Source: a virus
Virus record (IMG/VR): IMGVR_UViG_3300040811_000687
Strand: one strand, 5' to 3'
DNA length: 64,000 bases
Position 1 is the first letter of the stretch. The number at the start of each line of letters is the position of its first letter. The position numbers were made by a program, and so were the translations under genes. A model generated the notes under the pieces. The model did no database searches and was not told the origin of the DNA. It was given only the letters and a program-made list of their open reading frames with translations. This document shows positions 28,007-44,951 of this stretch, piece by piece.

Positions 28007-28012
28007 TATATT

Positions 28013-29353
28013 ATGACAGCAGTACAAAAAGACGAATTTGATATACACGCAAAACAAGATTTAGAAGGCGTTGAAAAAAAGTGGCAACAGTTTCAAGACG
28101 AAAATGATATATCTAATTTAGAAGATATAGATGAGAAAGTACTTAAAGAAGCTATAGAAAAAGACCTTGGTTACGTGTCTAAAATGACAGTACAAGAGTA
28201 TACACTATTTCAAAAGTGGCAAGAAGTACATAGAAAATATCCTACGGTAGAAACTACTACCTTATATGGTACTGAAAGATTACTTAAATCTCCCGAACAA
28301 AAACATCAAATAGAATCAGTTAGAAAAAATATCTGGATACCAGAATCACCTGAAGATTATGATAAACTAGAACCTGTATTAGAATTTACAGATGATAGTA
28401 CTAAAAATTTTAAAGGCAAAGCAGTAAGAACTCAACAATTATCAGAGAACTGGAATACATTAAGAACTTTCTTATCTACTATGAAAAACAATAGTAATAT
28501 TGGTAGACAGTTATTCTTTAATGTAAATGACAATAGATCAGGTAAACATCTAGGTGTCATTTGTATATCTGGTGACTTTATGGATTTAACACCTAGAGAC
28601 AGTGCTATTGGCTGGGATAGACAGAGTAAAACTTTTGGTGGTATGATTAATCATACAGCAATTGGTTCTTCTATTGTACCAACACAACCACTAGGTTATA
28701 GTTACACAGGTGGTAAACTATTAGCATATCTATGTTTATCAGATGACGTACAAAGAATATGGCAAGAAAAGTATGGTGACAAACTAGTTGGTGTTACCAC
28801 AACATCTTTATATGGTAAAGCAAAAGCAAATACATTAAGTCAATATGATGGTTTAAAATACTGGAAACGTATGGGTTTTACTATGGGGTCAGTATCATAT
28901 GAACCACAACCAGAAACTAAAAAACTAATTAAACAATGGTTAAAGAAAAATCATACTAAAAAATACTTTGAGTGGTATGAGGCAACAAGAGCCAACGGCC
29001 AACCATTAAAGAGAGATCATAAGAATAGATCATATATGTTTACCTATTCTAAAATGGGTATAGATAAAAAACTAATTAAAACAGATCACGCTAGAGGTAT
29101 CTATTTTGCAAGATTATATGAAAACACTTATGAGTATTTAAGAGGCGAAGTAAAAGATGACGGTCTAATATCTAGATTTGATTCGTCTACCGAAGCATTA
29201 GTTAAAGTATGGAAAGATAAACATGCCTCTAAAAGAATTAAAAACTTACTAGCAACCGATAGATTCTCTAAAGAATCACACTTCTATGATGATTTAATAT
29301 ACCTTGATTGGGAACAGTGCAAGGAAAAGTACTTGAATCAGGTAGGGAGATAA
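28013..29353 (+). CDS. DUF4338/DruA-family protein (probable Mom-like GNAT fold), paralog 1
   Basis: PRDSAIGW, IVPTQPLGY..GGKLLA, TTTSLYG, SQYDG, W..MGFT.G. Confidence 0.7.
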   Translation: MTAVQKDEFDIHAKQDLEGVEKKWQQFQDENDISNLEDIDEKVLKEAIEKDLGYVSKMTVQEYTLFQKWQEVHRKYPTVETTTLYGTERLLKSPEQKHQIESVRKNIWIPESPEDYDKLEPVLEFTDDSTKNFKGKAVRTQQLSENWNTLRTFLSTMKNNSNIGRQLFFNVNDNRSGKHLGVICISGDFMDLTPRDSAIGWDRQSKTFGGMINHTAIGSSIVPTQPLGYSYTGGKLLAYLCLSDDVQRIWQEKYGDKLVGVTTTSLYGKAKANTLSQYDGLKYWKRMGFTMGSVSYEPQPETKKLIKQWLKKNHTKKYFEWYEATRANGQPLKRDHKNRSYMFTYSKMGIDKKLIKTDHARGIYFARLYENTYEYLRGEVKDDGLISRFDSSTEALVKVWKDKHASKRIKNLLATDRFSKESHFYDDLIYLDWEQCKEKYLNQVGR

Positions 29354-29429
29354 CGAATCTACCATGAAAAATATAATGTTCTGGTTGTGTTCTTTCAAAA
29401 AGTAAGTAAAATCAACGATATTTAATGGC

Positions 29430-29458
29430 TTGACTTTTCTGTATTTTCCATATAGGAT
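29430..29458 (+). promoter_or_regulatory. Early promoter
   Basis: TTGACT-N17-TAGGAT. Confidence 0.65.
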
Positions 29459-29466
29459 AAGTGTAT

Positions 29467-31752
29467 ATGAAAAAAAATACCACTACAAATATTAGCCTTG
29501 ACCAAAAAAGTCAACTAGCTAAACTTATCGCTACAGAAAATATAACTATTCAACATAACAATGTACGTACTGCTTCGTTTGATGTAAAAAACAGAGTACT
29601 TACATTACCAATATTCAAAACAAAATCGCCAGATGTTTATGACATGCTTATCGCCCACGAGTGTGCTCATGCTCTCTTTACTCCTTATAAGTCGTGGGCA
29701 AAAATTCAAGATGATGAGCTACGTGCTTATGTAAATGTTCTAGAAGATTGTAGAATAGATAAAAAAATACAAACACAATATCCTGGTGTAGTTAGAAACT
29801 ACATTAATGGTTTTGATATTCTTAACAAAGCAAATTTCTTTGGTACTAAAGACAAAGATATTAATAAAGACTACATGTTAATTGATAAGATCAATATGTT
29901 TTATAAGTCTTCAAAAAGACTACCAATATTTTTCTCTACTTTAGATAATATCTGGATTAATAAAGTTAATGCTTTAAAATCATTTAAAGATGTTGTTGAG
30001 TTAGCCAAGAAGATGTTAGATTGGCAGAAAAAAGAAACTAAAAAACAAGAAAAAAATAGTGACTTTTCTGGTAGTAATCTAGATAAACTTTACAAACAAC
30101 CAGATGACCATCAAAAACCTGATGAGTCAGATAGTGAAGAACAAAATGAAGATCAAGAGTCTGCTGAAAAACAAGATGATGAAAAGCAAGACGGTGATCA
30201 AGAAGATGGTAACAACGAGTCGCAACAATCAACTACTCATGGTGATGGTGCAGCTACAGTAGATGGTTCAGGTCTAGACTCTAGAAAATTTATTGCTATT
30301 ACTGATAAGAAGTATCAAGAAAACACAGCAAATATTACAGAGACAAAATACGATTACAGTTATGTTACTTTACCAGATTCTAATCTAGAAAAAATTGTTG
30401 TTAGAAATAAAACTTTCTTAAAAGAAATGAGAGATTATATCAAAACAGAAACTTACAGTTATTCTAGTACAATTCAATATCTAAACTGGTTAAGAAATGA
30501 TTTTAAAAAGTATCAAAGTGATAACATGAAAACTGTTAACTATCTTGTTAAAGAGTTTGAAATGAAAAAATCTGCTACTGCTTACAAAAGAGCAAGTACT
30601 GATAAAACAGGTACTATTGATCCTCTTAAATTAAAAGATTATAGATTCAGTGATGATATATTCAAAAGATTAACTGTACTACCTACAGAAAAAAACCATG
30701 GTATGATGATGTTGTTAGATTGGTCTGGTAGTATGTGTGCTGATCTTAAAAAAACTATTGATCAATTAATTAATCTAGTAATGTTTTGTAGAAAAATTAA
30801 TATACCTTTTAAAGTATATGCATTTACAACTGAATATTGCAATAAACAAGGTATGGATCATAGAGATACGGATCCAACAAAGTCTAGTTGGAAATACAAA
30901 GCAAATGATATGTATCTAGAAAATTATAATTTAATTGAAATGGCAGATCATACTCTTAAAAAGAAAGATTTAGAAGAGTCTCTTATGTATCTTTACAACA
31001 TGGGTTTATGTTATGATAATCACACTAGAGCTTCATATTGGGATACTAAACCACAATACGAGGGTAGTAGATTTCATATGCCTAGTCAATACAGTTTAGG
31101 TACTACTCCACTTAACGAAGCTTTAGTTAGTTGTTTAAAACTAGTACCTTTGTTTAAGAAAAAATACAATATTGAAAAGATGACTTTTATTACCTTAACA
31201 GACGGTGGTGCCAATTACAGTGGTGATAGTAAACTAGTTGATGTTGATGGTAAACTTACTAAAAAACATAAAGATGATTTAAGAGGTTCTTTAAATACTA
31301 ATGAGCCGTATATACCAGTTAGAACTGTTATTAAAGTTGGTAAAAAACAATATGTTAACGAAGATGGCAGATCACAATTAACTAATCAGTTGTTACGTAT
31401 GATTCAAAAAGAACATAACATTAAGACAATTGGTTTCTTTGTATTAAAACAAATTAAATGGTGGACAATTGGTGACTATGTTAGACATTGTAAAACATAT
31501 GAGCAAAGAGAAAAAGCTATGGCTGATATTAAGAAGAAATTTCTTAAAGAGAAGTGTGCCGTTGTAACTCATAAAGGTTACAATAGATATTTCTTACTTA
31601 ATGGTAAGACTATGAAAGTTGAGAATACTGATCTTTCTACAATTAAAGATGACGCCAAACCAGGTCAGATTAAAAACGTATTTAGTAAAAGTATGAAAGG
31701 ACGAATCACTTCTAGAACACTTTTAAACAAATTCATAGAGGAGGTTGCCTAG
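29467..31752 (+). CDS. CobT-like metallopeptidase/vWA protein (partner of the MoxR AAA+ ATPase)
   Basis: HECAH (HExxH)...NVLED.R, acidic linker, MIDAS DWSGS, TPLNEAL, LTDG. Confidence 0.85.
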   Translation: MKKNTTTNISLDQKSQLAKLIATENITIQHNNVRTASFDVKNRVLTLPIFKTKSPDVYDMLIAHECAHALFTPYKSWAKIQDDELRAYVNVLEDCRIDKKIQTQYPGVVRNYINGFDILNKANFFGTKDKDINKDYMLIDKINMFYKSSKRLPIFFSTLDNIWINKVNALKSFKDVVELAKKMLDWQKKETKKQEKNSDFSGSNLDKLYKQPDDHQKPDESDSEEQNEDQESAEKQDDEKQDGDQEDGNNESQQSTTHGDGAATVDGSGLDSRKFIAITDKKYQENTANITETKYDYSYVTLPDSNLEKIVVRNKTFLKEMRDYIKTETYSYSSTIQYLNWLRNDFKKYQSDNMKTVNYLVKEFEMKKSATAYKRASTDKTGTIDPLKLKDYRFSDDIFKRLTVLPTEKNHGMMMLLDWSGSMCADLKKTIDQLINLVMFCRKINIPFKVYAFTTEYCNKQGMDHRDTDPTKSSWKYKANDMYLENYNLIEMADHTLKKKDLEESLMYLYNMGLCYDNHTRASYWDTKPQYEGSRFHMPSQYSLGTTPLNEALVSCLKLVPLFKKKYNIEKMTFITLTDGGANYSGDSKLVDVDGKLTKKHKDDLRGSLNTNEPYIPVRTVIKVGKKQYVNEDGRSQLTNQLLRMIQKEHNIKTIGFFVLKQIKWWTIGDYVRHCKTYEQREKAMADIKKKFLKEKCAVVTHKGYNRYFLLNGKTMKVENTDLSTIKDDAKPGQIKNVFSKSMKGRITSRTLLNKFIEEVA

Positions 31753-31782
31753 ATGGTACTGGTATCAACAGTTATTTTAGGC

Positions 31783-31811
31783 TTGCTTTCTATGGTAAAA
31801 CCTGATAGGAT
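31783..31811 (+). promoter_or_regulatory. Early promoter
   Basis: TTGCTT-N17-TAGGAT. Confidence 0.6.
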
Positions 31812-31847
31812 AAAGGATAAAAACAACGTAACAAAAAGGATAACACT

Positions 31848-33062
31848 ATGTTAAACACTAAACAAACACAATTTGTTGAACATGCTTATGCTATGTTTAA
31901 CAAAAAAGAATTAACTGTAGAGCAGTTAAAGAAAGCCAATGTAAAATTTGGTTGTAAGTATGCTCCACAATGGTTGATTAAAAATAAAGATTACAAGTTA
32001 GGTAAATCTTTGTTCAAATTACCTGTAGATGGTGAGGACGTTTCAGTACCCACAAAATCTGTAGTTAAAAGTAAAAAGACCACAGCAGTTGCTGAAGAAA
32101 CTAAAAGTGAGGCTGCTTATATTGTTTCATCTTTAGTTGGCGATATTGTTCCTAAAAAGGATCCTATATTCGTTCCTTTTGGTAACTATACAGATATAAA
32201 ATCTATCATAAAATCTGGTAGATTCTACCCTATATTCATAACTGGTTTATCTGGTAATGGTAAAACTATGGGTGTAATTCAATCTTGTGCTGAGGCCAAA
32301 AAAGAATTAATCAGAGTTAACGTAACAATTGAAACCGATGAGGACGATCTATTAGGTGGTTATAGACTTAAAGATGGCCAAACTGTTTGGCAAAACGGTC
32401 CTGTTATTGAGGCAATGGAAAGAGGCGCTCTTTTATTATTAGATGAAGTTGATTTAGCTTCTAATAAAATCATGTGTCTACAACCAATACTTGAAGGATC
32501 AGGTGTGTACGTTAAAAAGATAAACAAGTTTGTTAAACCTGCTTCAGGTTTCAACATCGTTGCTACTGCCAATACTAAAGGTCAAGGTAGTGAAGACGGT
32601 AAGTTTATCGGAACTAACATTCTTAACGAAGCTTTTCTTGAAAGATTTCCTGTTACATTAGAACAGAAATATCCAAGTACGGCTATTGAGAAAAAAATAT
32701 TAACCAATACGTTAAAAGCGGCTGGTAAATCAGACAAAGGCTTCATTGAGAAGTTGACTACATGGGCTGATGTTATCAGAAAAACTTATTTTGACGGTGG
32801 TGTAGACGAGATTATCTCAACAAGAAGATTAGTCCACATAACACAAGCTTATGCTATATTTAATAATAAAGTTAAAGCTATTCAAATGTGTACTAATAGA
32901 TTTGATGATGATACAAAAAATTCGTTTGTAGAGTTATATACTAAAGTCGATTCTGGTTCAAGTGTTGAAGACATTATGGAACAAAATAGACAACAGGATT
33001 TAGCTGCTCAATCGGATACTGACGAGGATAAAGATGAGTCGGAAGATTCTGACAATATCTAA
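31848..33062 (+). CDS. CobS-like MoxR-family AAA+ ATPase
   Basis: GLSGNGKT, ETDEDDLLGG, LLLDEVD, ATANTKG, EAFLERF, ISTRRL. Confidence 0.92.
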   Translation: MLNTKQTQFVEHAYAMFNKKELTVEQLKKANVKFGCKYAPQWLIKNKDYKLGKSLFKLPVDGEDVSVPTKSVVKSKKTTAVAEETKSEAAYIVSSLVGDIVPKKDPIFVPFGNYTDIKSIIKSGRFYPIFITGLSGNGKTMGVIQSCAEAKKELIRVNVTIETDEDDLLGGYRLKDGQTVWQNGPVIEAMERGALLLLDEVDLASNKIMCLQPILEGSGVYVKKINKFVKPASGFNIVATANTKGQGSEDGKFIGTNILNEAFLERFPVTLEQKYPSTAIEKKILTNTLKAAGKSDKGFIEKLTTWADVIRKTYFDGGVDEIISTRRLVHITQAYAIFNNKVKAIQMCTNRFDDDTKNSFVELYTKVDSGSSVEDIMEQNRQQDLAAQSDTDEDKDESEDSDNI

Positions 33063-33081
33063 ATCGTTTAGTGTAATCCTT

Positions 33082-33105
33082 GTGGGTGGTGTAGTGGCCA
33101 CCCAC
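33082..33105 (+). terminator. GC-rich hairpin after the AAA gene (no U-tract)
   Basis: GTGGGTGGT-GTAGTG-GCCACCCAC. Confidence 0.45.
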
Positions 33106-33136
33106 GTTATAAGGCAATCACTACAGAAAGGAATAG

Positions 33137-33343
33137 ATGTCAGGAATTAAAATTGATGTTAGAAATGGAAATGTGGAACAAGCATTACGTGTATTAAAAC
33201 GTAAGCACCTTAAAGATAATTTCCTTAAAACATATAAAGAAAAAATGTATTTTGAAAAGCCTTCAGAAAAAAAACGAAGGAAGAAAAAAGAAATGACTGC
33301 TAATAGCAGGAAAGCTAAGAAGTTACGTGAAAGAAATTTATAG
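33137..33343 (+). CDS. rpsU: Ribosomal protein bS21
   Basis: VRNGNVEQALRVLKRK...YFEKPSEKKRRKK. Confidence 0.9.
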   Translation: MSGIKIDVRNGNVEQALRVLKRKHLKDNFLKTYKEKMYFEKPSEKKRRKKKEMTANSRKAKKLRERNL

Positions 33344-33344
33344 A

Positions 33345-33533
33345 TTTAACGCTACATTTGATATATATATTATGGTCAAGGCTGCTCGTAAGTCCTTTTG
33401 ACAGCGTTAAAGGAAGCTTATAAGCTTCGGATATGGACTAACGTTTTTGGTGTTTTTATGGTCCTTAAATAAACGAAAACACCACTTATTGATATTCACT
33501 AGGGAACTGGTAGGGATCCTCAGCCTAGTGAAT
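33345..33533 (+). ncRNA. Candidate structured ncRNA (four stems) between rpsU and hsp20
   Basis: TTTAACGCT/AGCGTTAAA, GTCAA/TTGAC, GAAGCTTATAAGCTTC palindrome, TGGTGTTTT/AAAACACCA, ATTCACTAGG/CCTAGTGAAT; no ORF. Confidence 0.55.
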
Positions 33534-33547
33534 TTCTATAAGTAGGG

Positions 33548-33604
33548 TTGACAAATAAAATATCGTACTTATATAAATAACTGTAGACGCCATAATGGGT
33601 CTAC
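33548..33604 (+). promoter_or_regulatory. Overlapping early/late promoter and 5' leader hairpin of hsp20
   Basis: TTGACA 33548, TATAAATA 33572-33579, GTAGAC-GCCATAATGG-GTCTAC stem. Confidence 0.6.
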
Positions 33605-33635
33605 TTAAATTAACTTGCTTAACAAAGGAGATAAT

Positions 33636-34085
33636 ATGACTAATAAAGCAATTTCAATTTTCAATCAATTAAGACCACTATCAGTAGGATTTGATGATGT
33701 GTTTGACCATTTCCAAGGAATGTTTGATCACCAATATGATTCTATAAATACTTCAAACTATCCACCATATAATATCATTAAGACAGGTAAATATACCTAT
33801 GATATTCAGGTTGCTCTTGCAGGCTATGGTAAGAAGGACGTAGATGTGTCTTTTGAAAATAACATCTTAACTATTAAATCTGTTAAAGACGAATCAGAAA
33901 AAGAGGTTGAGGAAAACGATGGTATACTACACAAAGGTATTGCCAAACGTATGTTTACTAAATCTTTTACTATTGCCGATGATGTAGAAATCAAAGGTGC
34001 TGAACTAAAAGATGGTCTTTTAAGTGTTTCTATGGAACGAATCATACCAGAGAACAAAAAGGCTAGAAAAATACAGATAAAATAA
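33636..34085 (+). CDS. hsp20: Small heat-shock protein Hsp20
   Basis: NYPPYNI, ALAG, HKGIAKR.F, GAELKDGLL; AAAGGAG RBS. Confidence 0.95.
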   Translation: MTNKAISIFNQLRPLSVGFDDVFDHFQGMFDHQYDSINTSNYPPYNIIKTGKYTYDIQVALAGYGKKDVDVSFENNILTIKSVKDESEKEVEENDGILHKGIAKRMFTKSFTIADDVEIKGAELKDGLLSVSMERIIPENKKARKIQIK

Positions 34086-34094
34086 ACTAAAAAA

Positions 34095-34138
34095 AAGTGG
34101 AAGGGAGCATTGACTTCCTTCCTCTTTTATTATATAAT
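34095..34138 (+). promoter_or_regulatory. Terminator-like hairpin overlapping a sigma70 promoter for prx
   Basis: GGAAGGGAG...CTTCCTTCC stem plus T run; TTGACT(34110)-N17-TATAAT(34133). Confidence 0.6.
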
Positions 34139-34149
34139 GAGAGTATATT

Positions 34150-34698
34150 ATGAAAATACCAAATATAACATTTAAGACTAGAGTTGGTGACCTGACCGAA
34201 TCAGGAGAATGTAACTTTGAAGACGGCAAATGGGTTGATGTAACATCAGCTAATCTCTTTGACAATAAAAGAGTTGTTTTGTTTAGTTTACCAGGTGCTT
34301 TTACACCTACATGTACATCACAACAACTACCTGGTTTTGAATCAAGTACAAAAGCTTTTAAGATTTCTCACAACATAGATGAAGTTTATTGTGTTTCAGT
34401 AAATGATTCGTTTGTGATGAATGCGTGGGCTCATGCTTCAAATATAAAAAACGTTAAGATGATACCAGATGGTAACGGAGAACTAACAAAGGCATTAGAT
34501 ATGTTAGTTAACAAAGAAGCCATTGGTTTTGGTTATCGTTCTTGGAGATATGCAGCTATAATAAATGACGGTGAGATAGAGAAAATGTTTGTAGAACCTG
34601 GTAGAGATATCAATGATCCTTCGGATCCATATGGTGTTTCTTCTCCAGAAAATGTTTTATCTTACTTACAAAGTGAAGAAATTAAGAGGTCAGTTTAA
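34150..34698 (+). CDS. Peroxiredoxin (Prx5/redoxin family)
   Basis: LPGAFTPTC, CVSVNDSFVMNAW, RSWRYA. Confidence 0.95.
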   Translation: MKIPNITFKTRVGDLTESGECNFEDGKWVDVTSANLFDNKRVVLFSLPGAFTPTCTSQQLPGFESSTKAFKISHNIDEVYCVSVNDSFVMNAWAHASNIKNVKMIPDGNGELTKALDMLVNKEAIGFGYRSWRYAAIINDGEIEKMFVEPGRDINDPSDPYGVSSPENVLSYLQSEEIKRSV

Positions 34699-34701
34699 GG
34701 C

Positions 34702-34730
34702 TTGACTTTTTATTTGATCTGTAGTAGGAT
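34702..34730 (+). promoter_or_regulatory. Early promoter driving tRNA-Gly and the gp45 operon
   Basis: TTGACT-N17-TAGGAT; predicted +1 about 34737. Confidence 0.65.
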
Positions 34731-34737
34731 CAATAAT

Positions 34738-34811
34738 GCGGATATAGTATAAAAGTATTATGAGAGATTTCCAATCTTTAGAACTTGGGGCAGTACCAAG
34801 TATCCGCTCCA
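34738..34811 (+). tRNA. tRNA-Gly (TCC) with GGCAGTA T-loop and D-loop lacking GG
   Basis: GCGGATA/TATCCGC acceptor stem, AGAGA-TTTCCAA-TCTTT anticodon arm, CTTGG-GGCAGTA-CCAAG T-arm, CCA. Confidence 0.88.
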
Positions 34812-34839
34812 TTAAACAATGAAAAAAGGTGAATATATA

Positions 34840-35502
34840 ATGAACTTGTCAACAGAAACAATTGCTATGTTAAAAAACTTTTCTGATATTAATCAGAATA
34901 TTTTAATTAAGCCAGGAAATAAAATACAAACTATTTCCAATATGAGAAATATTTTAGCAGAAGCTGAAATAAAAGAAAAATTTGATAGCGAATTTGCTAT
35001 CTATGATCTACCACAATTTTTAAGATCACTAGACTTATTTAAAAGTCCTGAACTTAAATTTAATGGTGGTGCTAGCATGACAATCAGTGAGGCTAAATCT
35101 AGTAAATCAGTTAAGTATTTCTTTTCTGATAAATCTACTATATTTACACCTAACAAGATTAACATGCCAGATAATCATGTCACATTTACATTAAAGAATG
35201 ATGACTTGGTAGAATTACACAAAGGTGTTACAACTTTAAATTTACCAGATGTATCTGTAATAGGTGATGGTAAAAACATTAAACTTGTTGCAACAGATAA
35301 AAAGAATAAATCTTCTAACGAAGTATCTACTGTAATTGGCGAATCAGATATTAAGTTTACTGCTTACTTTAAATCAGAAAACTTTAAAATGATACCAGAT
35401 GATTACGATGTAGCAATCTCAAAAGCAAAAATATCTAGTTTTATTTCTAGAGGTAAGAACGTACAATATTGGATCGCATTAGAACCTGACTCTGAATTTT
35501 AA
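34840..35502 (+). CDS. gp45: Sliding clamp gp45
   Basis: LKNFSDINQNILI, FAIYDLPQFL, YWIALEPDS. Confidence 0.95.
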   Translation: MNLSTETIAMLKNFSDINQNILIKPGNKIQTISNMRNILAEAEIKEKFDSEFAIYDLPQFLRSLDLFKSPELKFNGGASMTISEAKSSKSVKYFFSDKSTIFTPNKINMPDNHVTFTLKNDDLVELHKGVTTLNLPDVSVIGDGKNIKLVATDKKNKSSNEVSTVIGESDIKFTAYFKSENFKMIPDDYDVAISKAKISSFISRGKNVQYWIALEPDSEF

Positions 35503-35513
35503 GGAGTTAGACA

Positions 35514-37262: not shown

Positions 37263-37270
37263 AAGGAATA

Positions 37271-37346: not shown

Positions 37347-37355
37347 GAATTTATT

Positions 37356-37748
37356 ATGTACGAATTGAAAGATTATTTAAAAGCTATTAACGAGACAAAA
37401 GTCAACCTTTTGGACACCACGGATATCGCCTGGTCTAAAAAATACCCTCCATATATCATTAATAAGTGTTTATCTATGTTTTGGGACACACTTCCACATG
37501 CCAATGAAATGAATGGTTATCACTTCTTGGACAAAGATATACAGTTTACCTTTTTACTAAATAGTATCAGACCAAAGAAACGTTTTGGAGGCAAATGGCT
37601 TAAGCAAACAAAACTAAATGACTTGGAATATGTTAAAGAGTATTATGGTTATAGTAATGAAAAAGCAAAACAGGCCTTAACCATACTCACAAAAGAACAA
37701 ATTAATAAAATTAAAGAAGCCACATATAAAGGCGGGAGAACTAGATGA
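37356..37748 (+). CDS. gp62: Clamp loader small subunit gp62
   Basis: YPPYIINKCLS, ANEMN, VKEYYGYSNEKA. Confidence 0.93.
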   Translation: MYELKDYLKAINETKVNLLDTTDIAWSKKYPPYIINKCLSMFWDTLPHANEMNGYHFLDKDIQFTFLLNSIRPKKRFGGKWLKQTKLNDLEYVKEYYGYSNEKAKQALTILTKEQINKIKEATYKGGRTR

Positions 37749-38188
37749 ATGAAGAAGTAAAGTGGTCGCAGGATAGTATGTTAGAAGTAACTCTAACTCA
37801 ACCAGATGATTTTTTAAAAGTCAGAGAAACACTTACTAGAATAGGTGTCGCAAGTAGAAAAGATAAAACATTATTTCAATCTTGTCATATTCTACATAAA
37901 CAAGGAAAATATTACATAGTACATTTTAAAGAGTTATTTGCTTTAGACGGCAAGAAAGCAACTCTAATTAACAACGATATTCAACGTAGAAATACTATTG
38001 CTATATTGTTACAAGACTGGAATTTAATAGATATTGTTGAAAAAGAAACAGCAATATCAAACAAGGCACCATTATCACAAATTAAAGTATTACCATTTAA
38101 AGAAAAAAAAGAGTGGATATTATCTGCTAAATATAACATAGGTAAAAAGGTAGTAAAAGAGACTGATAATGCAAATACCGAAGTTTAG
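37745..38188 (+). CDS. regA: Translational repressor RegA
   Basis: DDFLKVRETLTRIGVA, CHILHKQGKYYIVHFKELF. Confidence 0.96.
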   Translation: MNEEVKWSQDSMLEVTLTQPDDFLKVRETLTRIGVASRKDKTLFQSCHILHKQGKYYIVHFKELFALDGKKATLINNDIQRRNTIAILLQDWNLIDIVEKETAISNKAPLSQIKVLPFKEKKEWILSAKYNIGKKVVKETDNANTEV

Positions 38189-39650
38189 AGATTACATAAC
38201 AGAGAATACAAAGTCACGTAAGGGTAAAGCAATGACAGTTGCTATCCTAACTATAAACGATTCAAATAAACCTAACAAGGATTCAACTGTTGAACTTATA
38301 GAAAAAGCTTGTATCAAAAAAAAGATCAAGTGTATTATAGTCAATACAAAAACAACCATTATTACAGGTAAAGATGAAGATAAGAACACCCTAACAGTGT
38401 TTAACTACGATGGTAAGAATGGTGAACATACTTTCGTAGGTAAAGATACTGCCTGTATAACAAGAGGTGGTGCAGTGGAAGACGAAGCTGGACTGTCTTT
38501 AATATCTGCCTTTCAAAATTCACAATCTTTTATGATGAATACAAGAGCTTCTATGCTTACTTGTGATAATAAATTAACATCAGCTTTACTATTTGAAAAA
38601 AATGGTATACCTACACCAAGAACTGCTTTTATATCTAACGAAAAAAATATAAAAACAGGTTTAGATTTAATTGGTGGTAAGTTTCCTGTCATATTAAAAA
38701 CACTAACAGGTACACAAGGTGTCGGTGTAGTTAAAATAGAAAGTTATGAAGGCCTGGTTGCTACTGTACAAGCTATGTGGAAATTAGGTGCTGAACTTTT
38801 AATACAAGAATTTATGGAAACAAAGTTTGATGTAAGAACTTTTGTAGTAGATAATAAAGTTATTGCAAGTACAAAAAGAGTACATAGCTCATATGACTTT
38901 AGATCAAATACACACAGAGGTGCCGAGGCAATGCCTTATATTTTAAGTGATGAAGAACACGAACTAGTTTTAAAAACTTCAAGAGCTTCAAAAGCATATA
39001 TGGTAGGAGTTGACCATATAGTAAACAATAAAAAACCATACATTTTAGAAATCAATGGTAGTCCAGGATCAGGTGCTGATTATCAAGGTTACCAATATAA
39101 AGATTATTATTCTGATCCAGAACCATCTGGTAGAATAGACGGTGAAAAAATGATGGAATATCTAGTAGATTATATATCAGATAGAACTAATTGGGACAGA
39201 CAATCTTTAGTAGAGAGTGGTTGGTTAGAAACGGTAGAACTAGAAGATGGTTTAAAAGTCAGAGCAAAATTTGATACAGGTAACGGTGCTAAAGCATGTG
39301 CTTTACACGCCGATGATATTTTAAGTAAAGACAAAATTGTTAAATGGACATATGATGGTAAAACTTATAGTAAACCAAGACATGGTATAAGTAAAGTATT
39401 CAGAGCAAATGCTGAAGGAGAAGAACCATCAGAAACAAGACCAACAATTCTTATGGATATTACATTTAATGGTTTTACATATAAAGATGTAGAAGTAGGT
39501 TTAGATAATAGACCAAGAGCACATTCCGATTTGTTGGTGAATCGTGAGATAATGAGACAAATGAACATTAGTGTCAACCCTAATAGAACGTTTGTATTAA
39601 GTAAAAGACTAAAGCCGGTTGACAAAGACTACGATAAAGATGAAGAATAA
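38169..39650 (+). CDS. RimK-like ATP-grasp ligase fused to a RimB-like/retropepsin-type protease domain
   Basis: FPVILKTLTGTQGVGV, LIQEF, FRSN.HRG, GVD, LEINGSPG; C-terminal GWLE...AKFDTGN..ALHA...RP. Confidence 0.85.
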   Translation: MQIPKFRDYITENTKSRKGKAMTVAILTINDSNKPNKDSTVELIEKACIKKKIKCIIVNTKTTIITGKDEDKNTLTVFNYDGKNGEHTFVGKDTACITRGGAVEDEAGLSLISAFQNSQSFMMNTRASMLTCDNKLTSALLFEKNGIPTPRTAFISNEKNIKTGLDLIGGKFPVILKTLTGTQGVGVVKIESYEGLVATVQAMWKLGAELLIQEFMETKFDVRTFVVDNKVIASTKRVHSSYDFRSNTHRGAEAMPYILSDEEHELVLKTSRASKAYMVGVDHIVNNKKPYILEINGSPGSGADYQGYQYKDYYSDPEPSGRIDGEKMMEYLVDYISDRTNWDRQSLVESGWLETVELEDGLKVRAKFDTGNGAKACALHADDILSKDKIVKWTYDGKTYSKPRHGISKVFRANAEGEEPSETRPTILMDITFNGFTYKDVEVGLDNRPRAHSDLLVNREIMRQMNISVNPNRTFVLSKRLKPVDKDYDKDEE

Positions 39651-39701
39651 CGCTTGCCTTTTGATAGGCAATCATATATAATTAACAACATAGGAGATAT
39701 T

Positions 39702-40007
39702 ATGGAAGAAGTGAAAATATTAAGACTATCTACAGGTGAAGATGTAATTGCCAAGGTAGGAGAAAACGATCAAGGCATAAGTTTAAAAAATCCATTCGTG
39801 ATTATACCTCAACAAAGAGGACCAGGACAACCAATACAATTAATGATGTCACTGTACAATGCCTTTGGTAAAAAAGATACGGTAACTGTTAGTAAAGACA
39901 AAGTTGTTTTTATGACAGAACCAAAAGATGAGATAAGATCATCTTACGAGCAAAACACAAGCTCAATCATAACAAAAAACAGTAAACTTATAACAGAAGC
40001 AACGTGA
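39702..40007 (+). CDS. Conserved hypothetical protein (possible Sm-like fold)
   Basis: VKILRLSTGEDVIA...LKNP; AGGAG RBS; upstream TTGCCT-N17-TATAAT promoter. Confidence 0.6.
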   Translation: MEEVKILRLSTGEDVIAKVGENDQGISLKNPFVIIPQQRGPGQPIQLMMSLYNAFGKKDTVTVSKDKVVFMTEPKDEIRSSYEQNTSSIITKNSKLITEAT

Positions 40008-40336
40008 TAACGGTAAATTTTATTAGGACAAATAATGAAAAAGTCCAAGTAAAAGTGCCACCAGGTTTCACTGTTATGGAGGCAGCCAAAGAGGCTGATC
40101 TAGAGGAGATTCCTGCTAGTTGTGGTGGTTGTTGTGCTTGTGGTACTTGTCACGTATATGTAAACAATGCCTGGATTGCCAAATTAGGTGAAATAGATTA
40201 TAATAGTACTGAACAATCAATATTAGAATATGAAAAATCTTATAAGAAAGGCATAAGCAGATTAAGTTGTCAACTATCATTAACAGAGGAACTTGACGGC
40301 ATAACTTTACATTTACTTGATGATGAACTTTTATAA
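40004..40336 (+). CDS. fdx: 2Fe-2S ferredoxin (adrenodoxin/ISC type)
   Basis: CGGCCACGTCHVY...SRLSCQ. Confidence 0.92.
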   Translation: MITVNFIRTNNEKVQVKVPPGFTVMEAAKEADLEEIPASCGGCCACGTCHVYVNNAWIAKLGEIDYNSTEQSILEYEKSYKKGISRLSCQLSLTEELDGITLHLLDDELL

Positions 40337-42812
40337 ATCAGTTATAGAACATAAAGGTAAACTTCTTGTTAGAGGTATACACGATGGCAAAGACTATAAA
40401 GAAAAGATAGATTTTGGTCCTACTCTATATTCTTTAACACAAAAAGATAGTAAGTTTAAAACATTAGATAATAGAAATCTAAATCCTATAAAATTTAAAA
40501 ACATCAATGACGCTAGAAGATTTAGACGTGATGTTGCAACTCAAAACTCTCCGATATATGGTCTAGAAAGATTTCATTATCAATATATCAACGAACAATT
40601 TCCAGAAAACATCAAGTGGGATAAAAAGTATATTAAAATATTTACAATAGATATTGAAACTACAGTAACAGATGGTTTTCCAGATGTAGAAAACCCTACC
40701 GAAGAAATAATTTGTATCACTGTTAAGAATCAAACTAACAAACAAATTCTAACGTGGGCTGCTGGAGATTTCAAAACAGATAGAACTGATATTACTTTTA
40801 TTAAATGTAAAAACGAAAACGTTTTACTTATGGAGTTTATGAAGTTTTGGCTTAAGAATTATCCAGATGTTGTTACTGGTTGGAATACTAAATTCTTTGA
40901 TTTACCTTACTTGATGAATAGAATTAAACTAGTTGCAGGTGAAAAGGTTGCAAATAAAATGTCGCCGTGGGGTATGATTGAAAAGATTGAAGTCATGGTA
41001 AGAGGTAGACCACAAACATCATATATTTTAAAAGGTACAGTGATGTTAGATTATCTTGATCTGTACAGATGGTTTATACCTACTAGACAAGAGAGTTATA
41101 AACTAGATTATATTGGTGAAGTAGAACTTGGTCAAAACAAAAACGTAAACCCTTATTCTACTTTCAGAGAATTTTATGAGAAAGACTTTCAAAAATTTAT
41201 TGATTATAACATACAAGACGTTGAGATTGTTGACGCATTAGAAGATAAACTTGGTTTAATTGAGTTAGCATTAACTGTTGCTTATGAATCTAAAGTAAAC
41301 TATGATGATATATTTTCACAAGTAAGAGTGTGGGATACTTTGATTGCTAATCATCTATTGGCAAAAAACATATGTATACCACCAAGAGAAGAACATAGTA
41401 AAGATACAAAATATGAAGGCGCTTATGTAAAAGACCCTATAGTTGGCCAGCACAAGTGGGTATGTTCTTTTGATATTAACTCACTATATCCACATATCAT
41501 TATACAATATAATATTTCTCCTGAAAAGATAATAGGTCAGGATAATTCTGGTATTTCTGTAAACAAAATGTTAAAACGTAATTTAGATTTATCTCATTTA
41601 AAAAATGAAAATGCCTGTGTTACACCTAACGGTGCAAAGTTTAAAAATGATAGTCAAGGTTTCCTACCTGAAATGATGGAAACAATGTACAATGAACGTG
41701 TGATCTATAAGAAAAGAATGATCAAGGCTAAAAAAGAATACGAGAAAACAAAAGAACCACATTTACTAAAAGAAATTGCAAGATGTCATAACATTCAATG
41801 GGCAAGAAAGATTGCTTTGAACTCAGCCTATGGTGCAGTTGGTAATCAATACTTTAGATTTTATGATGTAAGACAAGCAAGTGCTATTACAACAGCAGGT
41901 CAATTCATTATCAGATTCATTGAAGAAAAGGTCAATGGTTATATGAATAAGATATTAAAACAAGATGAAGACTTTGATTATATTGTTGCCTCTGATACAG
42001 ATTCAATCTATGTAACATTAGATAAACTAGTTGAGAAGACTTGTAAAGGTAAAGACAATGAACAAATATGTAACTTTATTGATAAGGTCGTTAACAGTAG
42101 ACTAGAGCCGTATATTGAAAAATGTTTTGATGAATTATCCGAATATACAAATGCATTTAAGAACTGTATGGTAATGAAACGTGAAGTAATTGCCAACAAA
42201 GGTATATGGGTTGCAAAGAAAAGATATATGTTAAACGTATTAGACGATGAGGGTGTAAGACTTTCTGACCCTAAACTAAAGATCATGGGTATTGAGGCAG
42301 TTAAATCATCTACACCACAAGTTTGCAGAGGTAAAATTAAAGAAGCAATCAAAATTATTATGAATAAAGATGAAGATACTTTACAAAAATTTATTGCTGA
42401 TTTTAAAACAGAGTTTAATACTCTATCTGCTGAAGCTATATCTTTTCCTAGATCATGTAATAATATTAAAAAGTATAAAAACCCAGCAACTATATTCAGT
42501 AAAGGTACACCGATACATGTAAAAGGTTCTTTGATATATAATCACAAACTAAAAGAACTTAAATTACATAAACAATATCCTTATATACGAGAGGGTGATA
42601 AGATTAAATTTTTAAAACTAATAGAAGCAAACCCATTTAGATTTGATGTGATTAGTTATATTACAACATTACCTAAAGAGTTTGAATTAGACAAATATAT
42701 AGATCGTGAAACACAATTTGAAAAAACATTCCTTGACCCTATGCGATTTATATTACAAGCAATAGGTTGGTCACAGGAAAAGAAAGCAAGTTTGGAGGCA
42801 TTTTTCGGATGA
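40323..42812 (+). CDS. gp43: Family B DNA polymerase gp43
   Basis: IDIET exonuclease, SFDINSLYP, KIALNSAYG, SDTDS, KKRY. Confidence 0.98.
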   Translation: MNFYKSVIEHKGKLLVRGIHDGKDYKEKIDFGPTLYSLTQKDSKFKTLDNRNLNPIKFKNINDARRFRRDVATQNSPIYGLERFHYQYINEQFPENIKWDKKYIKIFTIDIETTVTDGFPDVENPTEEIICITVKNQTNKQILTWAAGDFKTDRTDITFIKCKNENVLLMEFMKFWLKNYPDVVTGWNTKFFDLPYLMNRIKLVAGEKVANKMSPWGMIEKIEVMVRGRPQTSYILKGTVMLDYLDLYRWFIPTRQESYKLDYIGEVELGQNKNVNPYSTFREFYEKDFQKFIDYNIQDVEIVDALEDKLGLIELALTVAYESKVNYDDIFSQVRVWDTLIANHLLAKNICIPPREEHSKDTKYEGAYVKDPIVGQHKWVCSFDINSLYPHIIIQYNISPEKIIGQDNSGISVNKMLKRNLDLSHLKNENACVTPNGAKFKNDSQGFLPEMMETMYNERVIYKKRMIKAKKEYEKTKEPHLLKEIARCHNIQWARKIALNSAYGAVGNQYFRFYDVRQASAITTAGQFIIRFIEEKVNGYMNKILKQDEDFDYIVASDTDSIYVTLDKLVEKTCKGKDNEQICNFIDKVVNSRLEPYIEKCFDELSEYTNAFKNCMVMKREVIANKGIWVAKKRYMLNVLDDEGVRLSDPKLKIMGIEAVKSSTPQVCRGKIKEAIKIIMNKDEDTLQKFIADFKTEFNTLSAEAISFPRSCNNIKKYKNPATIFSKGTPIHVKGSLIYNHKLKELKLHKQYPYIREGDKIKFLKLIEANPFRFDVISYITTLPKEFELDKYIDRETQFEKTFLDPMRFILQAIGWSQEKKASLEAFFG

Positions 42813-43306
42813 AAAAATTTAAAGATAATATAAACGACTTTTTTAAATGGGTTAAAGGTACAGAATTAGTTGAACTAGATGACATTGATGTATCAGAGGA
42901 TCCTGTAAGACCTGAACTTACTCTTGGTTTTCGTATCATGCATGGCCGAAAAATATTTGGTCTAAAATATGATAATGAAATTGAGGCGATTGTTTGTGTT
43001 GCATATTGTCCTGAAGTACCATATACTGTAAGAGAAATGGATTACATGTCACAAGCTGCCAATCAAGACGGCCAAAGAGGTGAAATAATTGTAGCATATA
43101 CTGTATGGTCTCGTAAAAGAGGTGCAGGTAAAGAGATAATTAAAAAGTTAGCTGAGTATGCAAAACAAAATCATTTTAAAAGAGTGGTAACCTTATCGCC
43201 ATTAACACCAATGGCTACAAGTTTTCATATAAAAAATGGTGCAAAACAAATTAAAGTAAGTGAAGATACTCAAAATTTTGAATATGATCTCAACAAAAAA
43301 ATATAA
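42809..43306 (+). CDS. GNAT-like hypothetical protein
   Basis: AYTVWSRKRGAGKEII (acyl-CoA loop-like), TLSP...A..FH..NGA. Confidence 0.55.
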   Translation: MKKFKDNINDFFKWVKGTELVELDDIDVSEDPVRPELTLGFRIMHGRKIFGLKYDNEIEAIVCVAYCPEVPYTVREMDYMSQAANQDGQRGEIIVAYTVWSRKRGAGKEIIKKLAEYAKQNHFKRVVTLSPLTPMATSFHIKNGAKQIKVSEDTQNFEYDLNKKI

Positions 43307-43835
43307 TATAATCTACGCTGATCCTCCATGGCATTTTCAAAACTATAATAATGATAAGGCACAAACTAATCCTGCCAATCATTATCCTACTATGACAATG
43401 AAAGATATAGAAAATTTACCGATAGGTGACCTAGCAGACAAAGATTGTGTATTGTTTATGTGGTGTACCGATCCTTTACTACACAAACAAATACCATTGG
43501 TAGAGAAGTGGGGCTTTGAGTATAAGACAGTAGGTTTCACGTGGGCGAAGACGAATAAGAATAGAATAAACAATTACTTTTTCAAAGGTCCAGGATACTG
43601 GACTAGGGCCAACACCGAGACATGTATACTTGCAACAAAAGGTAAACCAAAAAGAGTTGATGGTAATGTAGATAGATTAGTTGTGAGTGAACGTAGAGAA
43701 CATAGCAGAAAACCAGATAGAATCAGAGACGATATAGTAAAATTATGTGGTGATTTGCCACGTATAGAACTATTTGCTAGAACTTCTATGCCTGGTTGGG
43801 ATGTATGGGGAAACCAGGTTGACAAATTTAGTTGA
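43284..43835 (+). CDS. MT-A70-family (N6-adenine) DNA methyltransferase
   Basis: YADPPW, LFMW, WGFEYKT, HSRKP, IELFAR, GWDVWGN. Confidence 0.92.
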   Translation: MISTKKYNIIYADPPWHFQNYNNDKAQTNPANHYPTMTMKDIENLPIGDLADKDCVLFMWCTDPLLHKQIPLVEKWGFEYKTVGFTWAKTNKNRINNYFFKGPGYWTRANTETCILATKGKPKRVDGNVDRLVVSERREHSRKPDRIRDDIVKLCGDLPRIELFARTSMPGWDVWGNQVDKFS

Positions 43836-43847
43836 ACGTGATATAAT
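43819..43847 (+). promoter_or_regulatory. Consensus sigma70 promoter (leaderless)
   Basis: TTGACA-N17-TATAAT with TGn; predicted +1 = 43854 = second ATG. Confidence 0.8.
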
Positions 43848-43853
43848 ATGAAG

Positions 43854-44951
43854 ATGAAAACATTAACAAATGATCAGGCCTTACACTGTGCCAATATATT
43901 CAATGACTATTTTGAAAAGTTTAGTCGTATAGATGAATATATGAGAGATCAAAAGTTATCTCAAATAATAGATGTACCATCTGCTTTGCCTGGTATGGGT
44001 CTAGAGGGTAGTATATTTTCTAATTTTGATATGTCGCCTAAAGATATGGACTTTGAAATACTAGAGCCAGATAATGAAACATATGATACATTATTAAACA
44101 TGACTTCTTCTCATACTAATATGTCAAGTGTACCTGGTAAAAATTTAAAGATTGCAGTAAGAGAAAAAAATAGTGGTCAATGGGTAGGTTTTATAAGATG
44201 TGGTTCTCCTGTTATAAACATGAAACCAAGAAACGATTTGTTAACTCATGTACCAGAATTAGTAAGTTTTAATAAGACTTCTATCATGGGATTTGTAATA
44301 GTACCAACTCAACCTTTCGGTTATAATTATCTAGGTGGTAAACTATTGGCTGCCATATGTTGTAGTCATACAATAAGAGAAAAACTAAATGTAAAATATG
44401 GTATGAATTTAGCATTGTTTGAGACTACAAGTTTATATGGTAATAGTAAATCATCTAGTCAATACGATGGTATGAAACCATATTTAAGATATAAAGGTTT
44501 AACTGATAGTGATTTTATACCTTTGATACATGGTAAACCTTTTCACGACCTTGCAACATTTGTTGAAAACAATGTAGGTAAACTTATTAAAGATGACGCC
44601 TCTAGTAGAAAGTTAAAACTAACTACAGCCATTATTGGTTTAGTAAAAAGAAGTTTAGACAAAAGTAATTTAGAAAGATTTAATACAACTATAAGTAATG
44701 CTAAGAAATTAACTGAAAGAAAAAGATATTATGTTAGTGACTATGGTATTAAGAACTATCTAGATGTAGTAAAAGATAACAAGACAAAAATTATTAAAGG
44801 TGAGAATTGGGATAAATTTAACCTAAATAATATCATAGATTGGTGGAAGAAAAAGGCCGAGTCTCGTTATAATAAACTGAAACAAGAAGATAGATTAAGG
44901 AGTGAGTTAGAGGTATGGACACCAGACGCAAAAATAGATATAATAAGATAA
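43854..44951 (+). CDS. DUF4338/DruA-family protein (probable Mom-like GNAT fold), paralog 2
   Basis: KPRN, IVPTQPFGYNYLGGKLLA, ETTSLYG, SQYDGMK, KGLT. Confidence 0.7.
   Translation: MKTLTNDQALHCANIFNDYFEKFSRIDEYMRDQKLSQIIDVPSALPGMGLEGSIFSNFDMSPKDMDFEILEPDNETYDTLLNMTSSHTNMSSVPGKNLKIAVREKNSGQWVGFIRCGSPVINMKPRNDLLTHVPELVSFNKTSIMGFVIVPTQPFGYNYLGGKLLAAICCSHTIREKLNVKYGMNLALFETTSLYGNSKSSSQYDGMKPYLRYKGLTDSDFIPLIHGKPFHDLATFVENNVGKLIKDDASSRKLKLTTAIIGLVKRSLDKSNLERFNTTISNAKKLTERKRYYVSDYGIKNYLDVVKDNKTKIIKGENWDKFNLNNIIDWWKKKAESRYNKLKQEDRLRSELEVWTPDAKIDIIR

What the first reader, a model, noticed from the sequence alone, without database searches (positions are those of the whole stretch)
28013..44951. Two DUF4338/Mom-like paralogs plus aberrant tRNA-Gly genes: candidate aminoacyl-tRNA-dependent DNA hypermodification system
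Seen: paralogs at 28013 and 43854 share IVPTQP.GY...GGKLLA..C.S...KYG..L...TTSLYG.....SQYDG.K......G.T. Each has its own leaderless sigma70 promoter. Paralog 2 lies in a gp43-GNAT-MT-A70-DUF4338 run. The window also encodes two tRNA-Gly with non-canonical T-loops, while tRNA-Thr is canonical. Knowledge/inference: the DUF4338 C-terminal pattern resembles Mu Mom-type GNAT-fold proteins. Mom makes N6-carbamoylmethyl-adenine and, as I recall (verify), was shown to use Gly-tRNA-Gly as donor. Staphylococcal non-proteinogenic tRNA-Gly used by Fem transferases likewise have altered D/T loops. Hypothesis: the phage supplies dedicated Gly-tRNA to a (possibly heterodimeric) Mom-like enzyme that modifies its DNA against restriction. 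No Druantia partner genes are present in this window.
Basis: inference. Interest (0 to 1): 0.8.

Follow-up and report, generated by a model that had tools for sequence, protein, structure and literature searches.

The report
Phage Mom-like enzymes with private tRNA-Gly
A marine T4-like phage of SAR11 bacteria carries two DruA-family enzymes whose nearest solved structure is phage Mu's Mom, plus an unannotated, oddly built glycine tRNA that stays linked to one of them across related phages; this points to an untested system that brings its own activated glycine, most likely to modify DNA.

Summary
The window is a T4-like pelagimyophage related to HTVC008M and Mosig. It has two DruA/DUF4338 paralogs: P1 (28013-29353) and P2 (43848-44951). 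It also has tRNA-Gly(GCC) with a U55C T-loop, and tRNA-Gly(UCC) at 34738-34811 that lacks the D-loop GG and the T-loop TPsiC.

The new evidence is genomic linkage:
- All 20 closer P1 contigs with enough flank carry the odd tRNA-Gly 3.9-7.2 kb downstream.
- In a more distant lineage, 24 of 43 P1 genes are followed within 7-73 nt by a 63-69 nt mini tRNA-Gly. It has its own promoter, invariant GlyRS identity marks and an encoded CCA, but a 4-5 nt "anticodon" loop that cannot decode.

The tRNA tracks P1, not P2. Mosig has P1 only, and cyanophages have P2 only. The donor role and the DNA target are inferred, not shown. This scan reached the same reading on eight other genomes, and I found no publication of it.

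The parts
23448..23522 (+). tRNA-Gly(GCC) with encoded CCA. Near-canonical except for T-loop UCCGACC (U55 to C). It reads GGU/GGC, which make up 80% of the window's glycine codons.
   Evidence: ARAGORN; Rfam 67.5 bits; relatives show this T-loop drifting between canonical and odd forms; codon usage
27978..28012 (+). Promoter-like site for P1: TTGACA-N17-TACCTT, ending 6 nt before the ATG, which would give a leaderless or near-leaderless mRNA.
   Evidence: Read from the sequence; not listed by the consensus scanner because the -10 element is weak
28013..29353 (+). Paralog 1 (P1), a 446-aa DruA/DUF4338-family GNAT with an extra N-terminal domain (residues 1-110). This is the paralog linked to tRNA-Gly genes in relatives.
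34702..34730 (+). Promoter-like site TTGACT-N17-TAGGAT, ending 7 nt before G1 of the odd tRNA-Gly.
34738..34811 (+). Odd tRNA-Gly(UCC), 74 nt with encoded CCA. It keeps G1-C72, C2-G71, G3-C70, U73, C35 and C36. It lacks the D-loop GG (AAAAGUA) and the T-loop TPsiC (GGCAGUA). ARAGORN misses it.
   Evidence: Rfam 43.4 bits; family model R1 96.5 bits; covariation across 12 distinct relatives, 96.4% of cells paired and 11 of 21 pairs with compensatory changes, 0 of 500 shuffles as high
42809..43306 (+). Small viral GNAT, 165 aa. The likely start is ATG 42809, overlapping the gp43 stop codon. Membership in the system is uncertain.
   Evidence: Pfam Acetyltransf_1 E 7e-4, below cut-off; Atlas viral GNAT clusters at 0.98-0.99; the Mosig homolog (86% identity) sits elsewhere in that genome
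43260..43835 (+). MT-A70-family DNA methyltransferase directly upstream of P2.
   Evidence: Pfam MT-A70 120.9 bits and phrog_359; the adjacency to P2 recurs in roughly two thirds of P2 contigs with readable upstream flank
43819..43847 (+). Consensus sigma70-type promoter TTGACA-N17-TATAAT with an upstream TG. It abuts the P2 ATGs at 43848 and 43854, which suggests a leaderless mRNA.
   Evidence: Read from the sequence
43848..44951 (+). Paralog 2 (P2), a 367-aa DruA-like GNAT in the replication module. Orthologs occur in HTVC008M and 25 Synechococcus T4-like phage records.

Best explanation
P1, and probably P2, are GNAT-fold transferases of the DruA family that work like phage Mu Mom. They would take the glycyl group from a charged tRNA-Gly and put it on a nucleic-acid target, most likely an adenine in the phage's own double-stranded DNA. 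The phage supplies the donor itself. A tRNA-Gly keeps every mark needed for charging by the host's bacterial GlyRS (G1-C72, C2-G71, G3-C70, U73, C35, C36 and an encoded CCA). Its elbow (D-loop and T-loop) has been rebuilt. In a sister lineage it has shrunk to a 63-69 nt mimic that cannot read codons. This would keep activated glycine away from the ribosome, as staphylococci do for their Fem transferases.

Shown here: the genes, the predicted fold, the RNA structure and its covariation, and the linkage.
Inferred: charging by GlyRS, use of the tRNA as donor, DNA as acceptor, and the chemistry.

For: (2) Precedent. Mom transfers glycine from Gly-tRNA-Gly to N6 of adenine in dsDNA (PMC13219725).

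(3) Linkage in two different arrangements. In 20 of 20 P1 contigs at 66% identity or more with at least 7.3 kb of flank, the odd tRNA-Gly lies 3.9-7.2 kb downstream. In 24 of 43 P1 contigs at 58-62% identity, a mini tRNA-Gly lies 7-73 nt after the P1 stop. It has its own TTGACA/TATAAT promoter, and an intrinsic terminator follows it in at least some contigs (read in L133 and L156). None occurs elsewhere in those loci.

(4) The RNAs are under selection for structure and for GlyRS identity, not for decoding. The mini forms have 8 of 14 pairs with compensatory changes, invariant GCGG...CCGC-U-CCA, and loops of 4-5 nt that keep CC. In the odd forms, 11 of 21 pairs covary, the non-canonical D- and T-loops are conserved, position 34 varies between U and A, and C35 and C36 are invariant.

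(5) DNA context. Relatives of P1 are fused to UDG-superfamily and ParB_N domains. DUF4338 fused to DndF has been described as a GNAT domain (PMC10853773). P2 sits between gp43 and the clamp-loader genes, and an MT-A70 DNA methyltransferase often lies directly upstream.

(6) HTVC008M's only tRNA is this odd tRNA-Gly, and Mosig has one too. The published count of tRNAs for HTVC008M is 0 (PMC7029224).
Against: - There is no sequence relation to Mom. hhalign probability is under 1.5% in all three comparisons, and there is no PF25680 hit. Mom's essential R111, S124, D149 and R151 have no demonstrable counterparts.
- The conserved IVPTQP.GY...GGK stretch resembles the acyl-CoA-binding beta4-alpha3 motif of ordinary GNATs, so an acyl-CoA donor is not excluded.
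- In this window the odd tRNA is full-size with a normal 7-nt anticodon loop and could still decode. The ACC anticodon of Mosig and HTVC008M matches GGU, which is 70% of the window's glycine codons.
- The 20 of 20 figure comes from one lineage with conserved gene order.
- About 19 distant P1 contigs have no mini tRNA. Four of the five long contigs I checked have tRNA arrays instead (25-27 tRNA matches in three, 8 in one), and one has none.
- P2-only cyanophages show no tRNA-Gly link.
- SAR11 hosts rarely carry restriction systems (PMC7029224).
- No chemical data exist.
Confidence: 0.45

Rival explanations
1. P1 and P2 are ordinary acyl-CoA-dependent GNATs with unknown substrates. The tRNA-Gly genes are plain codon-supplementing phage tRNAs that have drifted in an AT-rich genome. 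The linkage is inherited gene order.
For: - Many acetyl-CoA GNATs score within 1 Z unit of Mom.
- The beta4-alpha3 stretch is glycine-rich.
- The window's tRNA-Gly(UCC) has a normal anticodon arm.
- The GCC and ACC anticodons match the dominant GGU codon.
- tRNA-Gly also occurs in cyanophages that lack P2.
Against: - The mini forms have 4-5 nt loops and reduced D-arms and cannot decode. Yet they keep the GlyRS identity set, CCA and their own promoter, and they sit only next to P1.
- The non-canonical D- and T-loops are conserved while the stems covary.
- Two different gene arrangements link P1 with a tRNA-Gly.
Confidence: 0.2
2. P1 uses Gly-tRNA as donor, but the acceptor is not DNA. It could be a protein N-terminus or side chain, a cell-wall or lipid precursor, or a small molecule, as with FemX/FemA, L/F-transferase, MprF or PacB.
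Against: Mom outranks FemA in every search and shares the beta6-beta7 helical insertion. The fusions are to UDG and ParB_N, which are DNA-related domains. P2 lies in the replication module next to a DNA methyltransferase.
Confidence: 0.15
3. The tRNA-like RNA is the enzyme's substrate, decoy or regulator rather than its donor. For example, P1 could be a TacT-like enzyme that acetylates Gly-tRNA-Gly, with the adjacent mimic acting as pseudo-substrate or RNA antidote. Alternatively, the mimic could soak up a host tRNA-targeting defence.
Against: Lytic T4-like phages have no obvious use for such a pair. In the pelagimyophage lineage the tRNA is several kb away. The DNA-related fusions and Mom being the best structural match fit a DNA role better.
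Confidence: 0.12

Closest known systems
Mom of bacteriophage Mu (Pfam PF25680; PDB 8bv8), the Gly-tRNA-Gly-dependent N6-adenine modifier of dsDNA
   Different: No detectable sequence relation (hhalign probability under 1.5%). The conserved residues differ: K235, Y278, QP.G, GGK and TTSLYG here, against R111, S124, D149 and R151 in Mom. The proteins here are larger and carry extra domains. Mom uses host tRNA, whereas these phages encode their own odd or mini tRNA-Gly. The promoters here are early sigma70-type, whereas Mom is expressed late.
DruA (DUF4338, PF14236) of the type I Druantia anti-phage system
   Same: P1 is a sequence-level member of the family (62.4 bits). P2 is a divergent member. 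DruA-like CDS in Synechococcus phages have been noted by structure (Phold preprint).
   Different: The genes are phage-borne, with no DruB-E partners in the window. DruA's own biochemical function is unknown, so membership explains nothing mechanistically.
Staphylococcal non-proteinogenic tRNA-Gly that feeds FemX/FemA/FemB (recalled knowledge; Villet 2007 is cited in PMC13219725)
   Same: Dedicated tRNA-Gly species with altered D- and T-loop nucleotides. They keep GlyRS identity and serve a GNAT-fold transferase outside translation.
   Different: Those are cellular, full-size, and feed peptidoglycan synthesis. Here the RNAs are viral, range down to 63 nt with non-decoding loops, and pair with a different enzyme family.

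Membership tests
DruA / DUF4338 (Pfam PF14236) | Score above the Pfam gathering cut-off (27 bits) | tested here: met
   P1 scores 62.4 bits. P2 alone scores 24.1 bits, below the cut-off. P2 joins P1 by BLASTP at E 2e-23 and by the shared phrog_19197.
Druantia type I defence system | DruA together with DruB, DruC, DruD and the DruE helicase | tested here: not met
   None of the 10 large ORFs scanned matched a DruB-E PADLOC model. The only hits were generic helicase and SMC matches. The window is a lytic T4-like phage genome.
Mom family (Pfam PF25680) | Sequence membership in the Mom profile | tested here: not met
   No PF25680 hit at E 0.01. hhalign of the DruA-like profiles against Mom alone or a 37-sequence Mom profile gives probability 0.2-1.3%.
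Mom family (Pfam PF25680) | GNAT core with a helical (HTH-like) insertion between beta6 and beta7 | tested here: met
   Predicted models only. 8bv8 is the top hit with 172-184 residues aligned against about 145 for other GNATs. The models place three helices between beta6 and beta7.
Mom family (Pfam PF25680) | Essential residues R111, S124, D149 and R151 | tested here: inconclusive
   No residue-level superposition was available. The family-invariant residues differ. The only hint is a shared R-G-(V/I)-Y after the insertion, in a non-significant hhalign match.
Mom family (Pfam PF25680) | Gly-tRNA-Gly as co-substrate and dsDNA adenine as acceptor | not testable with these tools
   Only genomic linkage to tRNA-Gly genes and DNA-related fusions and neighbours.
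GNAT superfamily | GNAT fold | tested here: met
GNAT superfamily | Acyl-CoA-binding Q/R-x-x-G-x-G/A motif at beta4-alpha3 | tested here: inconclusive
   The conserved TQP.GY...GGK stretch is glycine-rich, but it is longer than the canonical motif and differs from it. No ligand modelling was possible.
tRNA (Rfam RF00005) | Score above the gathering cut-off (29 bits) and a cloverleaf supported by covariation | tested here: met
   43.4 bits for 34738-34808. Across relatives, 96.4% of cells are paired and 11 of 21 pairs covary.
Canonical elongator tRNA | G18-G19 in the D-loop and T54-Psi55-C56 in the T-loop | tested here: not met
   The D-loop is AAAAGUA and the T-loop is GGCAGUA, both conserved in relatives. 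tRNA-Gly(GCC) has C at position 55.
Non-proteinogenic tRNA-Gly (staphylococcal type) | GlyRS identity set kept while ribosome and EF-Tu features are weakened | tested here: inconclusive
   The identity set (G1-C72, C2-G71, G3-C70, U73, C35, C36) is invariant. T-stem pair 51-63 is always A-U, U-A or G-U. The mini relatives cannot decode. Charging and EF-Tu binding were not measured.

The most novel reading that the evidence does not exclude
The DruA/DUF4338 family as a whole, including DruA of type I Druantia, consists of aminoacyl-tRNA-dependent nucleic-acid-modifying enzymes. Abundant marine and freshwater T4-like phages would use two of them, fed by a virus-encoded non-decoding tRNA-Gly mimic, to install a glycine-derived hypermodification on their DNA that has not been described before.
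Probability: 0.25. Interest if true: 0.9.

Novelty: new variant of a known kind. Interest (0 to 1): 0.78.

Why it matters
- It would be a second, sequence-unrelated enzyme family doing tRNA-dependent DNA modification.
- It would be the first case of a virus encoding its own non-translating aminoacyl carrier.
- It would give a testable biochemical function to DruA, the unexplained signature protein of type I Druantia.
- It concerns some of the most abundant phages in the ocean. Two cultured isolates, HTVC008M and Mosig, carry P1 and the odd tRNA, so the idea can be tested directly by nucleoside mass spectrometry.
- It shows that standard tRNA finders and published annotations miss these RNAs. 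HTVC008M is listed with 0 tRNAs, and in Mosig the tRNA lies under an annotated "hypothetical protein".

Tried and rejected
- Sequence routes to Mom found nothing: phmmer against PDB, Pfam, and hhalign against Mom alone and against a Mom family profile.
- ARAGORN misses the odd tRNA and the Mosig copy.
- blastn of the odd tRNA against 50,697 phage records found only Mosig.
- A link between P2 and tRNA-Gly in cyanophages is rejected. S-SSM7's tRNA-Gly is canonical, and tRNA-Gly occurs in P2-less S-CAM1, S-SKS1 and S-CAM4.
- An obligatory P1-P2 heterodimer is rejected as a requirement, because each paralog occurs alone. AF-multimer was not available.
- Reverse test, from tRNA to P1: of 14 contigs found through the tRNA pattern, 9 have P1 or P2. 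Four of the other five have too little flank. One (G002, 31% complete) has tandem odd tRNA-Gly genes near gp59, gp32 and thyX with no DruA-like gene within 20 kb on either side. This is inconclusive.
- The UDG-DruA fusion contig has no tRNA mimic.
- The Atlas search on the N-terminal domain of P1 gave nothing.
- A scan of bacterial genomes for DruA loci, to look for tRNA mimics beside cellular druA, failed because the alignment was too diverse.
- The small GNAT at 42809 shows no relation to Mom.
Full report
IDENTITY OF THE WINDOW. All large genes lie on the + strand. They are T4-like replication and recombination genes: family B DNA polymerase, gp45 clamp, a clamp loader, a Rad50-like ATPase, a UvsW-like helicase, and pelagiphage hallmarks such as peptide deformylase. 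The best phage matches to both paralogs are Pelagibacter phages Mosig and HTVC008M, followed by Synechococcus T4-like phages. The window's own assembly is not held. An IMG/VR fragment shares 59% of its k-mers and carries the same three tRNAs. GC content is 32.6%.

THE OBSERVATION. Two ORFs are paralogs: P1 (28013-29353, 446 aa) and P2 (43848-44951, 367 aa). P1 is a clear Pfam DruA (DUF4338) member at 62.4 bits. P2 falls just under the cut-off at 24.1 bits, but it matches phrog_19197 at E 5e-147, and P1 matches the same family.

P2 follows gp43, a small viral GNAT (real start probably ATG 42809, overlapping the gp43 stop codon) and an MT-A70 DNA methyltransferase. ARAGORN sees tRNA-Gly(GCC) and tRNA-Thr(UGU) only. 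Rfam adds a third tRNA at 34738-34808 with anticodon UCC, D-loop AAAAGUA and T-loop GGCAGUA. tRNA-Gly(GCC) has C in place of U55. tRNA-Thr is canonical.

P2 has a consensus TTGACA-N17-TATAAT promoter touching its ATG. P1 has TTGACA-N17-TACCTT. The odd tRNA has TTGACT-N17-TAGGAT ending 7 nt before G1.

FOLD. I predicted both proteins with alignments of 72 and 76 diverse homologs. The models have pLDDT 91.4 (P1) and 89.2 (P2). Foldseek alone gives only weak GNAT hits.

The Z margins are below 1, so this is formally a tie within the GNAT superfamily. The extra 30-40 aligned residues fit the three-helix insertion that the models place between beta6 and beta7. Mom has its essential HTH-like, putatively DNA-binding insertion at the same place.

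At sequence level there is no relation. hhalign of the DruA-like profiles against Mom or a 37-sequence Mom profile gives probabilities of 0.2-1.3%. The families conserve different residues. DruA-like proteins keep G181, K235, Y278 and the stretches TQP.GY..GGK, TTSLYG and SQY. Mom keeps R111, S124, D149 and R151. The glycine-rich beta4-alpha3 stretch leaves an acyl-CoA donor possible.

LITERATURE. Silva et al. (bioRxiv 2023; Nat Commun 2026, PMC13219725) show that Mom transfers glycine from Gly-tRNA-Gly to N6 of adenine in dsDNA, followed by an on-base rearrangement. An NAR 2024 comparative-genomics paper calls DUF4338 a GNAT domain and reports fusions to DndF (PMC10853773). The Phold preprint notes DruA-like CDS in six Synechococcus phages by structure and assigns no function. 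Only four papers mention DUF4338, and none links it to tRNA. The pelagimyophage survey lists HTVC008M with 0 tRNAs (PMC7029224).

THE tRNA-Gly FAMILY. Mosig carries a homolog of the odd tRNA under an annotated "hypothetical protein". It has anticodon ACC and compensatory changes in the anticodon stem. HTVC008M's only tRNA is another homolog, with anticodon ACC and T-loop AGCGUUA.

Twelve distinct family members give 96.4% paired cells, and 11 of 21 pairs carry compensatory changes (0 of 500 shuffles reach this). The first four acceptor pairs, U73, CCA, C35, C36 and the non-canonical D- and T-loops are invariant or nearly so. Position 34 varies between U and A. This is a genuine, selected RNA. 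It keeps what I recall as the bacterial GlyRS identity set, while the elbow that the ribosome, EF-Tu and tRNA-processing enzymes use is rebuilt.

LINKAGE TO P1. A covariance model of the family and a pattern scan were run over 80 IMG/VR loci found through P1. Every one of the 20 loci at 66% P1 identity or more with at least 7.3 kb of downstream flank has the odd tRNA-Gly 3.9-7.2 kb after P1. That is one lineage with conserved gene order, so it counts as about one evolutionary event.

The independent evidence comes from the 58-62% identity group. In 24 of 43 loci with readable downstream sequence, a 63-69 nt RNA lies 7-73 nt after the P1 stop codon. It has its own TTGACA/TATAAT promoter, and an intrinsic terminator follows it in at least some contigs (read in L133 and L156). 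It folds into an acceptor stem, a 3-bp remnant of the D-arm, a long "anticodon" stem with a 4-5 nt loop that keeps CC, and a T-arm. Eight of 14 consensus pairs show compensatory changes, and GCGG...CCGC-U-CCA is invariant. A second model built from these RNAs finds them only at that position. Such loops cannot decode.

Five long contigs from the P1 loci without a mimic were checked. Three carry 25-27 tRNA matches, one carries 8, and one carries none.

The tRNA follows P1 rather than P2. Mosig has P1 and the tRNA but no P2. Cyanophages have P2 only. S-SSM7's nearby tRNA-Gly is canonical, and tRNA-Gly also occurs in cyanophages without P2.

In the reverse test, 9 of 14 contigs found through the tRNA pattern have P1 or P2. 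The other five are fragments without decisive flanks, including one with tandem odd tRNA-Gly genes elsewhere in a T4-like genome.

WHAT THE TARGET MIGHT BE. Several observations point to DNA:
- Relatives of P1 are fused to a UDG-superfamily domain and to ParB_N domains.
- P2 sits in the replication module in pelagiphages and cyanophages.
- An MT-A70 methyltransferase directly precedes P2 in roughly two thirds of P2 contigs with readable flank.
- Bacterial DruA partners with the DruE helicase-nuclease.
- Mom is the best structural match.

None of this is chemistry.

COUNTER-EVIDENCE SPECIFIC TO THIS WINDOW. Its odd tRNA is full-size with a 7-nt anticodon loop. GGU makes up 70% of glycine codons, GGC 10% and GGA 19%. 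So the GCC tRNA, and the ACC variants in relatives, make translational sense. SAR11 genomes rarely carry restriction systems, so an anti-restriction purpose is not obvious.

VERDICT.
- The GNAT fold closest to Mom holds.
- The Mom and Gly-tRNA precedent holds.
- The co-occurrence holds for P1.
- Family membership in Mom fails.
- An obligatory heterodimer is unlikely.
- The donor role, the DNA target and the function are inferred.

My best reading, at about 0.45, is a Mom-like, Gly-tRNA-dependent transferase with a phage-encoded private glycyl carrier that probably acts on DNA. The rivals are ordinary acyl-CoA GNATs plus translational tRNAs (0.2), glycyl transfer to a non-DNA acceptor (0.15), and the RNA acting as substrate, decoy or regulator (0.12).

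After I had reached this reading, the scan's notebook showed eight earlier AI notes on other genomes with the same idea. They agree with it, but they are not independent evidence. I found no publication of the enzyme-tRNA link.

Noticed in passing
L005:16805-16878 (Mosig MT647606) and L009:1501-1574 (HTVC008M KC465899): Both cultured pelagimyophages carry the odd tRNA-Gly with the rare anticodon ACC, and neither copy is annotated. In Mosig it lies under CDS Mosig_000011. HTVC008M is published as having 0 tRNAs.
   Followed up: yes
L161, L162, L172-L176, just downstream of P1: Where other relatives have the mini tRNA-Gly, these contigs have a strong promoter followed only by a short hairpin and a U-run. 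This could be a remnant or a replacement small RNA. The phages behind L161 and L162 carry about 25 tRNA genes elsewhere.
   Followed up: partly
G002:C1:23046-23201 (locus L297): Two odd tRNA-Gly genes lie in tandem in a different region of a T4-like genome, near gp59, gp32, thyX and phoH. No DruA-like gene lies within 20 kb. The same contig encodes a CHASE2-adenylate/guanylate cyclase protein.
   Followed up: partly
BFVD hits to the P1 model: DruA-like proteins with strong structural matches (E 8e-20 to 7e-9) occur in giant viruses (Faunusvirus, Yasminevirus, Dasosvirus), partly as proteins of 1,150-1,260 aa.
   Followed up: no
window 38169-39650: A RimK-type ATP-grasp ligase is fused to a putative ATP-dependent zinc-protease domain, sitting between the clamp-loader genes and gp43.
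   Followed up: no
window 40004-40336 and 34150-34698: A 2Fe-2S ferredoxin gene lies directly upstream of the DNA polymerase. A peroxiredoxin-like (Redoxin/AhpC) gene lies directly upstream of the odd tRNA-Gly.
   Followed up: no
L062, L063, L073, L074 (P2 loci at about 66% identity): These contigs carry a structurally canonical tRNA-Gly with the unusual anticodon ACC. L074 carries it together with the odd tRNA-Gly(UCC).
   Followed up: partly
L104-L107, about 4.35 kb upstream of P1: In these relatives the second tRNA-Gly(GCC) has itself acquired the AAAAGUA D-loop and a non-canonical T-loop. The GCC copy therefore drifts between canonical and odd forms within the lineage.
   Followed up: partly
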